The notes under the pieces are model-generated. The model was not told the origin of the DNA, ran no database searches, and was given only the letters and a program-made list of their open reading frames with translations. The translations under genes and the position numbers were made by a program. Below, in pieces: positions 61,290-62,649 of a stretch of DNA of 64,000 nucleotides (positions within the stretch are counted from its first letter, which is position 1; each line of letters begins with the position of its first letter). The DNA comes from Escherichia coli (GTDB lineage Bacteria > Pseudomonadota > Gammaproteobacteria > Enterobacterales > Enterobacteriaceae). The stretch lies in assembly GCF_016026235.1 (NCBI RefSeq), contig NZ_CP065613.1. One strand, 5' to 3'.

Positions 61290-61457
61290 ATGAACAAATT
61301 TATTAAAGTTGCACTGGTAGGTGCAGTACTGGCTACGTTAACTGCATGTACTGGTCATATTGAAAACCGTGATAAGAACTGCTCTTACGACTACCTGCTG
61401 CACCCGGCAATTTCTATTTCTAAAATCATTGGCGGTTGCGGTCCTACTGCACAGTAA
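61290..61457 (+). CDS. yhfL: small lipoprotein YhfL, 55 aa
   Basis: MNKFIKVALVGAVLATLTACTGHIENRDKNCSYDYLLHPAISISKIIGGCGPTAQ; lipobox LTAC; preceded by very A/T-rich promoter region. Confidence 0.85.
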   Translation: MNKFIKVALVGAVLATLTACTGHIENRDKNCSYDYLLHPAISISKIIGGCGPTAQ

Positions 61458-61498
61458 GTCTCTGACAGAAATCGGCTAACACCGGTTTAATTGCCCGA

Positions 61499-61530
61499 CG
61501 CCCTCTGGATTTTCCGAGGGCGTATTTGTT
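61499..61530 (+). terminator. rho-independent terminator after yhfL
   Basis: cgccctc-tggattttcc-gagggcg hairpin followed by tatttgtttc. Confidence 0.6.
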
Positions 61531-61563
61531 TCTGCATTCTTTTCGAAAACATCATTCACAAGA

Positions 61564-62649
61564 TTAAATACTGGCAATACTCTCACGCAAAATCCGCAGC
61601 ACCGTCTCTTCACCGCTGCGATTCGGGTTAATGCGAATCGTACAATGTTCTGATTGTGGATTCGCCTGGCGAAACGTTCCGGAAAGGCGATAAAAGAGCG
61701 GCGGGATTTCATATTTCGACTCTGCACCGACCGGGTAAGGCAACGCGCCACGCTTTTGCGCTTCTTCCAGCACCCTGGCGGCAATCGGCTGATGAAACTC
61801 GACAATCAACACCTTCGACTGCGCATTGGCAATGACGGCGCTTTTCACTTCCGCCACCGCGCCGCCGTTAAGCAAAGCCAGCAACCGTTCGGATACTCCC
61901 GCCTGCACCGCATGCATCACTGGCGCGAACATCAGCCCACGCAACACTTCCAACGCATGAGCGCCCTGGATCTGGCTGCCGCCGGAGTAAAGCGTGGCGC
62001 GAATCCGACTAATAACATCGGCATCGCCAACCACTGCACCAACGCCCTCCGGCCCAAACAGCTTGAAGCAGGAGAATGTCGAGACATTCGCGCCGCATTC
62101 ACAGCCGATTCGCGCCACCTTCATCACCGCATAGTTGTCATCGGTTAACGCTGGAACACCTGCCGCGCGCAACGTTGCCAGCACATCTGCCAGCACATAG
62201 CTGTCCTGCGGCTGCTGGCGCGTATGCTGCACCAGCGCGGCATCAGGTTGTTGCTCGTCGACGACCTGCTTCAGTGCCGACAGGTCATTGAAATCAGCAG
62301 TAATAAGCGTCAGCCCCATCTGCTCAATAATAACCCGTGTCGTCGGGTAAACAGGCGCGTCATGCACCAGAAGACGCTGCCCCGGTTTGAGCAAAGCCGC
62401 CAGCCCGGCGCGAATCGCGCCAGTCCCCGCGCCCTGCACCAGCGCCGCGGCCTGTGCGTGAAATGCATCAGCCAGCACCTGCTCCACCCGTTGGGTAATA
62501 CGCGGTTGATTCAGACCTGGAGTTAACCCTAAATCACCGCCAGTAAGAAACTCGCTGCCGGGGAAATGGCGACAAATGCTATCCACCAGCGCAAACTGCT
62601 TTTGCTGCGCCTCAATAATCGTCAGGCTTTGCAAAGGAAACGTCTTCAT
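61564..62649 (-). CDS. yhfS: PLP-dependent (aminotransferase-fold) protein YhfS, 361 aa
   Basis: ORF MKTFPLQSLTIIEAQQKQFALVDSICRHFPGSEFLTGGDLGLTPG... Confidence 0.88.
   Translation of the reverse strand: MKTFPLQSLTIIEAQQKQFALVDSICRHFPGSEFLTGGDLGLTPGLNQPRITQRVEQVLADAFHAQAAALVQGAGTGAIRAGLAALLKPGQRLLVHDAPVYPTTRVIIEQMGLTLITADFNDLSALKQVVDEQQPDAALVQHTRQQPQDSYVLADVLATLRAAGVPALTDDNYAVMKVARIGCECGANVSTFSCFKLFGPEGVGAVVGDADVISRIRATLYSGGSQIQGAHALEVLRGLMFAPVMHAVQAGVSERLLALLNGGAVAEVKSAVIANAQSKVLIVEFHQPIAARVLEEAQKRGALPYPVGAESKYEIPPLFYRLSGTFRQANPQSEHCTIRINPNRSGEETVLRILRESIASI

What the first reader, a model, noticed from the sequence alone, without database searches (positions are those of the whole stretch)
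61457..61564. yhfL is followed directly by yhfS: the fructoselysine (frlABCDR) operon is absent
Only about 107 bp, containing a terminator-like hairpin, separate yhfL from the convergent yhfS. In the K-12 arrangement as I recall it, frlA-frlB-frlC-frlD-frlR lie between them. Together with the missing gsp/chiA block and the short rpsG allele, this marks the source strain as non-K-12-like and places an accessory-gene integration hotspot at this junction.
Basis: partly seen in the sequence, partly recalled or inferred. Interest (0 to 1): 0.25.

Follow-up and report, generated by a model that had tools for sequence, protein, structure and literature searches.

The report
Common frl-less yhfL–yhfS junction
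This E. coli strain has no fructoselysine-utilisation (frl) operon between yhfL and yhfS, a known arrangement shared by about 39% of complete E. coli genomes and by related species, so it is the older gene order and K-12 carries the insertion.

Summary
yhfL (61290-61457, +) and yhfS (61564-62649, -) converge across a 106-nt spacer. K-12 has frlABCDR between the same two genes.

The exact difference is that 29 nt of the window (61534-61562) stand in place of 5,242 bp of K-12.

This is not unusual:
- 2,106 of 5,426 complete E. coli genomes have the same uninterrupted junction.
- 3,293 have the yhfL-frlA junction.
- frlBCD is found in 3,300 genomes, always on the chromosome and essentially always at this site.

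The literature already calls loss of fructoselysine use a hallmark of phylogroup B2.

The 29-nt spacer is homologous in ST131 (B2), O145, a cryptic Escherichia clade and E. albertii. Several other genera also have yhfL next to yhfS without frl. The frl-less allele is therefore the ancestral type, and the frl block is a derived insertion with no mobile-element features.

"Integration hotspot" is only weakly supported. There is one cargo at this junction, although the wider yhfL-trpS interval is modular.

Verdict: real, ordinary and already known. Interest is low.

The parts
59662..61035 (+). cysG, the conserved left anchor gene upstream of yhfL
   Evidence: ORF of 457 aa. Collinear with K-12 cysG.
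61290..61457 (+). yhfL, a small lipoprotein-type gene of 55 aa (DUF4223)
   Evidence: ORF. Pfam PF13978 at E=5e-38. Annotated yhfL in all matched genomes.
61498..61533 (+). Likely rho-independent terminator of yhfL: hairpin 61498-61523 plus T-rich tail 61524-61533. It lies in the flank shared with frl-positive genomes.
   Evidence: Present in the MFE and centroid folds of the spacer. 97% of cells pair over 6 Escherichia haplotypes, with 8 invariant G+C-rich pairs and one compensated pair. The identical sequence precedes the frl block in K-12. The simple terminator scan did not flag it because of a one-base bulge.
61534..61562 (.). 29-nt allele-specific spacer (GCATTCTTTTCGAAAACATCATTCACAAG) that stands in place of the 5,242-bp frl block of K-12
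   Evidence: BLAST breakpoints. Homologous in PS10-3, O145, ST131, a cryptic clade and E. albertii. No significant similarity to either end of the K-12 block.
61564..62649 (-). yhfS, a PLP-dependent aminotransferase-fold gene, convergent with yhfL
   Evidence: ORF of 361 aa. Pfam YhfS-like_C at E=2.7e-43 plus Aminotran_1_2. The exact protein is recorded from E. coli assemblies.
62661..63965 (-). yhfT, the next gene of the yhfS-yhfZ module
   Evidence: ORF of 434 aa. Pfam YhfT at E=1.4e-180.

Best explanation
The window carries the frl-less, ancestral-type allele of the yhfL-yhfS junction.

Shown:
- Two convergent genes are separated by 106 nt.
- The 106 nt consist of the yhfL 3' region with a conserved terminator hairpin and T-tract, followed by a 29-nt spacer that ends one base before the yhfS stop codon.
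- In K-12-type genomes exactly these 29 nt are replaced by a 5,242-bp block. The block holds the frl promoter region, frlA (transporter), frlB (deglycase), frlC (epimerase), frlD (kinase), frlR (repressor), a REP-like palindrome and a 43-bp dispersed repeat.
- The frl-less junction with a homologous spacer is found in other Escherichia species, and yhfL-yhfS adjacency is found in other genera. The frl block is therefore the derived state.

Inferred:
- The frl block entered an E. coli ancestor by horizontal transfer. It has no mobility genes of its own.
- Since then both alleles have persisted and been exchanged between lineages by homologous recombination in the conserved flanks.
- The source strain cannot use fructoselysine or psicoselysine through the Frl pathway.
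For: - K-12 order.
- Breakpoints, 29 nt against 5,242 bp.
- Population counts: 2,106 of 5,426 complete genomes have the uninterrupted junction and 3,293 have yhfL-frlA. frlBCD is in 3,300 genomes, none on plasmids, median one place per genome.
- Outgroups: E. albertii and a cryptic-clade genome (93% identical to the window, one HSP across the junction) have yhfL|yhfS without frl. So do Citrobacter werkmanii, Citrobacter sp. FP75, Superficieibacter electus, Buttiauxella agrestis and Enterobacter sp. ENT03. About 20 other Enterobacteriaceae have yhfL|trpS.
- The 29-nt spacer aligns across all frl-less Escherichia haplotypes.
- The frl block has no terminal direct or inverted repeats, no mobility genes and 53.8% G+C, like its flanks.
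- Outside E. coli, the nearest FrlB relatives are a Serratia sp. (84%) and Sodalis sp. C49 (83%). Then come mostly unnamed metagenome proteins at 53-79% identity, whose named members are largely Clostridia, Paenibacillus and Anaerolineae. This patchy spread fits horizontal transfer.
- Literature: frl absence is a known hallmark of phylogroup B2 and occurs in a minority of other groups (PMC5996543; PMC13001218).
Against: - The rest of the source genome could not be read, so frl elsewhere in this strain is excluded only statistically. Across E. coli at most 7 genomes have frlBCD without an intact yhfL-frlA junction.
- A divergent genome titled E. coli E69 (about 96% identical in cysG) also has frl at this site. 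The insertion is therefore old, or it has crossed lineages.
- For this particular lineage, retention of the frl-less allele cannot be told apart from later re-import of it.
It did not return E. fergusonii, E. marmotae or Salmonella.
- Terminator function and the growth phenotype were not tested.
Confidence: 0.85

Rival explanations
1. Secondary loss by allelic replacement. The source lineage once had frl and lost it when homologous recombination imported a frl-less yhfL-yhfS segment from another lineage.
For: The left flank (61036-61533) is equally close, at 98.8%, to a frl-less genome (PS10-3) and a frl-positive one (19KM1863). Identity varies strongly segment by segment (yhfS about 95.5%, neighbours about 98%), which suggests a mosaic region. 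Didelot et al. list frl among clusters gained by horizontal transfer in some lineages (PMC3505186).
Against: Nothing in the window marks a recent import. No complete genome is close enough to serve as donor or parent: the best is 97.8% over 1.2 kb and 98.7% over 24 kb. The allele itself would still be the ancestral type.
Confidence: 0.2
2. Simple deletion of frlABCDR in this lineage from a K-12-like ancestor.
For: Deletions do occur here. O157:H7 lost yhfS-yhfZ between two 43-bp repeats. Strain A30 lost everything from yhfL to trpS next to an IS1. FCI56 lost cysG to frlC.
Against: A deletion cannot recreate the 29-nt spacer, which is homologous to that of E. albertii and the cryptic clade. That spacer has no significant similarity to either end of the K-12 block. 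No repeats flank the block that could mediate an excision.
Confidence: 0.04
3. The junction is an integration hotspot that accepts various accessory cargos.
For: The wider yhfL-trpS interval shows four arrangements across Enterobacterales: nothing, yhfS-Z, frl plus yhfS-Z, and frl alone. Sodalis sp. C49 has frlABCDR next to trpS in the same neighbourhood. A few genomes have IS1 insertions in the nearby AT-rich spacers.
Against: At the yhfL-yhfS junction itself only two states account for 5,399 of 5,425 E. coli genomes. There is no tRNA, integrase, att-like repeat or compositional anomaly. The exceptions inspected are IS1 insertions or deletions, not new cargo.
Confidence: 0.1
4. Assembly artefact that collapsed the frl region.
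For: None found.
Against: The same junction is present at 99.95-100% identity in three independent NCBI assemblies and in 2,106 complete genomes.
Confidence: 0.01

Closest known systems
E. coli K-12 frlABCDR locus (fructoselysine/psicoselysine utilisation; Wiame et al. 2002, cited in PMC3505186 and PMC5996543)
   Same: Same chromosomal neighbourhood: nirBDC-cysG-yhfL on the left and yhfS-yhfT on the right. The yhfL terminator hairpin is identical.
   Different: The window lacks the whole 5,242-bp block and has a 29-nt spacer in its place.
frl-negative E. coli of phylogroup B2, such as ST131 and Nissle 1917. Absence of fructoselysine degradation is described as a B2 hallmark (PMC5996543, PMC13001218).
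   Same: Same uninterrupted yhfL-yhfS junction with a homologous 29-30-nt spacer.
   Different: The window is not the B2 haplotype. It is about 92.8% identical to ST131 over 1.2 kb, against 97.8% to its best non-B2 matches. It represents the less-discussed non-B2 frl-less minority.
E. albertii and cryptic-clade Escherichia yhfL-yhfS junction
   Same: Same gene order, homologous spacer and conserved hairpin.
   Different: Sequence is diverged: 84% identity for E. albertii and 93% for the cryptic clade.
E. coli O157:H7 arrangement (yhfL-frlABCDR-trpS)
   Same: Same variable interval between yhfL and trpS.
   Different: It is the opposite module content. frl is present, with frlA and frlD annotated as pseudogenes, and yhfS-yhfZ is deleted by recombination between two 43-bp repeats.

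Membership tests
frl-less (ancestral-type) yhfL-yhfS haplotype of Escherichia | yhfL and yhfS adjacent and convergent, with no gene between them | tested here: met
   ORF map and Pfam hits. 106-nt spacer.
frl-less (ancestral-type) yhfL-yhfS haplotype of Escherichia | Spacer homologous to that of other frl-less genomes and outgroups | tested here: met
   Alignment A1 of six haplotypes has 88% mean column identity, and the 29 nt align throughout.
frl-less (ancestral-type) yhfL-yhfS haplotype of Escherichia | No frl genes anywhere in the genome | not testable with these tools
   Only the 64-kb window is available and it holds no frl. Species-wide, frlBCD occurs in 3,300 genomes, against 3,293 with the yhfL-frlA junction, and never on plasmids.
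Genomic island or integration hotspot | Integrase or recombinase, tRNA or att-like direct repeats at the borders | tested here: not met
   The K-12 block is annotated with only frlABCDR. No repeat family coincides with the block ends.
Genomic island or integration hotspot | Several alternative cargos at the same site in different strains | tested here: not met
   Two states cover 5,399 of 5,425 genomes. The exceptions inspected are IS1 insertions or deletions.
Genomic island or integration hotspot | Base composition that differs from the flanks | tested here: not met
   The frl block is 53.8% G+C. The flanking genes are 52-57%.
Rho-independent terminator (yhfL) | G+C-rich stem-loop directly followed by a T-rich run on the coding strand | tested here: met
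   8 G+C-rich pairs plus 3 inner pairs, followed by ATTTGTTTCT. Conserved pairing over 6 haplotypes. The simple scan missed it because of a bulge.
Rho-independent terminator (yhfL) | Transcripts end at the T-run | not testable with these tools
   Needs Term-seq or 3' RACE.
Known small RNA in the spacer | Match to an Rfam family | tested here: not met
   No Rfam hit up to E=1 in 60900-61800.

The most novel reading that the evidence does not exclude
The frl-positive and frl-less alleles could be an old polymorphism kept by diet- or niche-linked selection. It would span E. coli phylogroups and perhaps divergent Escherichia lineages. The yhfL-trpS interval would behave as a modular cassette region: the frl and yhfS-Z modules are shuffled by homologous recombination and by short dispersed 43-bp repeats, without any mobile-element machinery. 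Sodalis carries frlABCDR next to trpS in the same neighbourhood, which hints at transfer of the module between genera through conserved flanks.
Probability: 0.3. Interest if true: 0.3.

Novelty: already known. Interest (0 to 1): 0.1.

Why it matters
The practical meaning is small. The strain is predicted to be unable to use the dietary Amadori compounds fructoselysine and psicoselysine. That trait already separates B2 from most other E. coli in metabolic models, and frl is a repeated target of adaptation in mouse-gut evolution experiments.

The one useful refinement concerns direction. K-12, the reference, carries the derived insertion, and the frl-less junction is the ancestral gene order. 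"Missing relative to K-12" should therefore not be read as gene loss.

Tried and rejected
- The consensus promoter/terminator scan found no terminator in the spacer. The hairpin has a one-base bulge that the scan does not allow. Folding and cross-species pairing counts were used instead.
- Rfam search of 60900-61800 gave no match, so there is no known sRNA in the spacer.
- Local alignment of the 29-nt spacer against the first and last 80 nt of the K-12 block was not significant: 193 of 2000 and 2000 of 2000 shuffles scored as well. I therefore could not show that the spacer survives inside the K-12 allele.
- The repeat search on the K-12 block found no direct or inverted repeats at its ends, so a transposon or site-specific origin was rejected.
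- No complete E. coli genome matches the window closely. The best is 98.7% over 24 kb.
- An exact-protein look-up tied the lineage to NCBI E. coli draft assemblies. The window's IS4-family transposase ORF is recorded under E. coli LT-68.
- The pathotype of LT-68 could not be settled. One paper calls it ETEC, and I recall it listed as EIEC. I make no claim about it.
- A literature search on frlA plus phylogroup gave only one paper. A broader search found the B2 papers.

Full report
**Observation**

The window carries nirB, nirD, nirC and cysG (59662-61035), then yhfL (61290-61457, +). yhfS (61564-62649, -) and yhfT (62661-63965, -) converge on it. Pfam confirms the three calls: DUF4223 for YhfL, YhfS-like_C plus an aminotransferase fold for YhfS, and the YhfT family for YhfT. 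The spacer is 106 nt (61458-61563). It contains a G+C-rich hairpin at 61498-61523 followed by ATTTGTTTCT.

**K-12 comparison**

The MG1655 record lists yhfL, frlA, frlB, frlC, frlD, frlR and then the convergent yhfS, yhfT, yhfU and php.

BLAST aligns window 55834-61533 to K-12 up to 77 nt past yhfL at 98.0%. It aligns window 61563-64000 to K-12 from one base before the yhfS stop codon at 97.0%. The 29 nt at 61534-61562 (GCATTCTTTTCGAAAACATCATTCACAAG) therefore stand in place of 5,242 bp of K-12. That block holds the frl promoter region, frlABCDR, a REP-like palindrome and a 43-bp dispersed repeat. The yhfL hairpin lies in the shared left flank, so it is present whether or not frl follows.

**How common the arrangement is**

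Among 5,426 complete E. coli genomes:
- 2,106 (38.8%) match the window junction without interruption.
- 3,293 have the K-12 yhfL-frlA junction.
- 2,943 have the frlR-yhfS junction.
- frlBCD DNA is present in 3,300 genomes, never on a plasmid, with a median of one place per genome.

frl in E. coli is thus essentially confined to this site. A frl-less junction means a frl-less genome, with at most about 7 possible exceptions.

frl-less genomes include ST131 and Nissle 1917 (B2), avian pathogenic strains and O145:H28. Published work already reports that B2 strains lack the transporter and the frl operon. It also reports that 10-30% of other groups cannot use fructoselysine (PMC5996543), and it calls the absence a hallmark of B2 (PMC13001218).

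**Which state is ancestral**

A scan of GTDB species representatives with YhfL returned 39 loci. I mapped K-12 proteins onto them.
- yhfL is followed directly by the convergent yhfS, without frl, in E. albertii, a cryptic-clade genome titled E. coli SCPM-O-B-8794, Citrobacter werkmanii, Citrobacter sp. FP75, Superficieibacter electus, Buttiauxella agrestis and Enterobacter sp. ENT03.
- About 20 other Enterobacteriaceae have yhfL followed directly by trpS.
- Only one locus, E. coli E69, has frl between the two genes.

The cryptic-clade genome is 93% identical to the window in a single alignment that crosses the junction. E. albertii is 84% identical, also across the junction.

The 29-nt spacer aligns in all frl-less Escherichia haplotypes examined: the window, PS10-3, O145, ST131, the cryptic clade and E. 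albertii. Independent deletions could not regenerate a homologous spacer. The frl-less allele is therefore the ancestral type, and the frl block is a derived replacement insertion.

**Nature of the frl block**

The block has no terminal direct or inverted repeats and no mobility genes. Its G+C content is 53.8%, like its flanks. The 29 nt show no significant similarity to either end of the block.

Outside E. coli, FrlB's nearest relatives are a Serratia sp. (84%) and Sodalis sp. C49 (83%). Below that come mostly unnamed metagenome proteins at 53-79% identity, whose named members are largely Clostridia, Paenibacillus and Anaerolineae. This patchy spread fits horizontal transfer.

In Sodalis sp. 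C49 the five-gene operon lies directly beside trpS-gph-rpe-dam, downstream of ppiA-tsgA. That is the same neighbourhood. In the Serratia sp. it lies elsewhere.

I infer that the operon entered an E. coli ancestor by horizontal transfer and now moves between lineages by homologous recombination in the flanks. This inference was not tested.

**The hotspot claim**

At the junction itself, two states account for 5,399 of 5,425 genomes. The exceptions I inspected are not new cargo:
- An IS1 sits between cysG and yhfL in 14EC033.
- An IS1-associated deletion runs from past cysG to trpS in A30.
- A partial deletion runs from cysG to frlC in FCI56.

The wider yhfL-trpS interval is modular. O157:H7 has frl but no yhfS-yhfZ. 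Its frlR-trpS spacer is a hybrid whose crossover lies in a 43-bp repeat. One copy of that repeat follows frlR in K-12 and the other precedes trpS. I therefore rate 'hotspot' as weakly supported for the interval and not supported for this junction.

**The hairpin**

Over six haplotypes, 97% of cells pair. Eight outer pairs are invariant, and one inner pair is compensated in E. albertii. With the T-rich tail, this is a plausible intrinsic terminator for yhfL. On the opposite strand no T-run follows the stem, so it would not obviously terminate yhfS. No Rfam family matches the region. Function was not tested.

**Source strain**

No complete E. coli genome is close to the window. The best matches are 97.8% over 1.2 kb and 98.7% over 24 kb. 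NCBI draft assemblies carry the same DNA at 99.95-100% identity.

Identity to other genomes varies by segment, and yhfS is the most diverged at about 95.5%. For this lineage, retention of the frl-less allele cannot be separated from later re-import of it.

**Verdict**

The feature is a common and already described presence/absence polymorphism, and the window carries the ancestral-type allele. Interest is low.

Noticed in passing
window 13866-15158 (transposase ORF 13886-15127, minus strand); mscL fragments 13660-13869 and 15036-15374: mscL is split by a 1,293-bp IS4-family element. It has an 11-bp target duplication (GGGGATATCCC) and terminal inverted repeats of about 18 nt. The cluster is named ISEc60-like, and the exact 413-aa ORF is recorded several times from E. 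coli LT-68. The mechanosensitive channel gene is probably inactivated.
   Followed up: partly
window 30395-31927: The K-12 gspA-gspO cluster and chiA are absent. In their place is about 0.7 kb holding a 155-aa type IV prepilin peptidase (Peptidase_A24) ORF at 30589-31056. The adjacent bfr/bfd are only 79% identical to K-12 at the DNA level, far below the 98-99.8% of the surrounding genes.
   Followed up: partly
window 35445-35915 (minus strand): rpsG encodes 156 aa and ends at ...AHYRW. K-12 rpsG encodes 179 aa with a C-terminal extension.
   Followed up: yes
L004 9440-9600 (O157:H7), L001 10775-10945 (K-12), L005 1398-1690: O157:H7 lacks the yhfS-yhfZ module. Its frlR-trpS spacer is a hybrid that crosses over inside a 43-bp repeat (CCCCTCACCCTAACCCTCTCCCCAAAGGGGCGAGGGGACCGT). 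One copy follows frlR in K-12 and another precedes trpS, so the loss is a repeat-mediated deletion. frlA and frlD are annotated as pseudogenes there.
   Followed up: partly
L049 6603-12604 (Sodalis sp. C49): A complete frlABCDR-like operon (FrlB 83% identical to K-12) lies directly next to trpS-gph-rpe-dam and downstream of ppiA-tsgA. This is the same chromosomal neighbourhood as in E. coli, but without nirBDC-cysG-yhfL.
   Followed up: no
window 61563-62649: yhfS is much more diverged between E. coli strains than its neighbours: about 95.5% to K-12, PS10-3 and 19KM1863, against about 98% for nirB-nirC, cysG and yhfT. B2 alleles are about 91% identical to K-12.
   Followed up: no
L052 6137-7281 (strain A30); L053 637-1667 (strain 14EC033): IS1 copies sit in the AT-rich DNA after cysG. 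In 14EC033 the IS1 lies between cysG and yhfL. In A30 an IS1 sits between cysG and trpS, and yhfL, frl and yhfS-yhfZ are all missing. A mouse-gut evolution preprint reports the yhfL/frlA intergenic region as a parallel adaptive target.
   Followed up: partly
L005 and L007 4208-5430 (same lineage as the window, beyond its right end): No gene is called where yhfW (a 408-aa Metalloenzyme-family product in L006) should lie, in two of three assemblies of this lineage. It may be a pseudogene.
   Followed up: no
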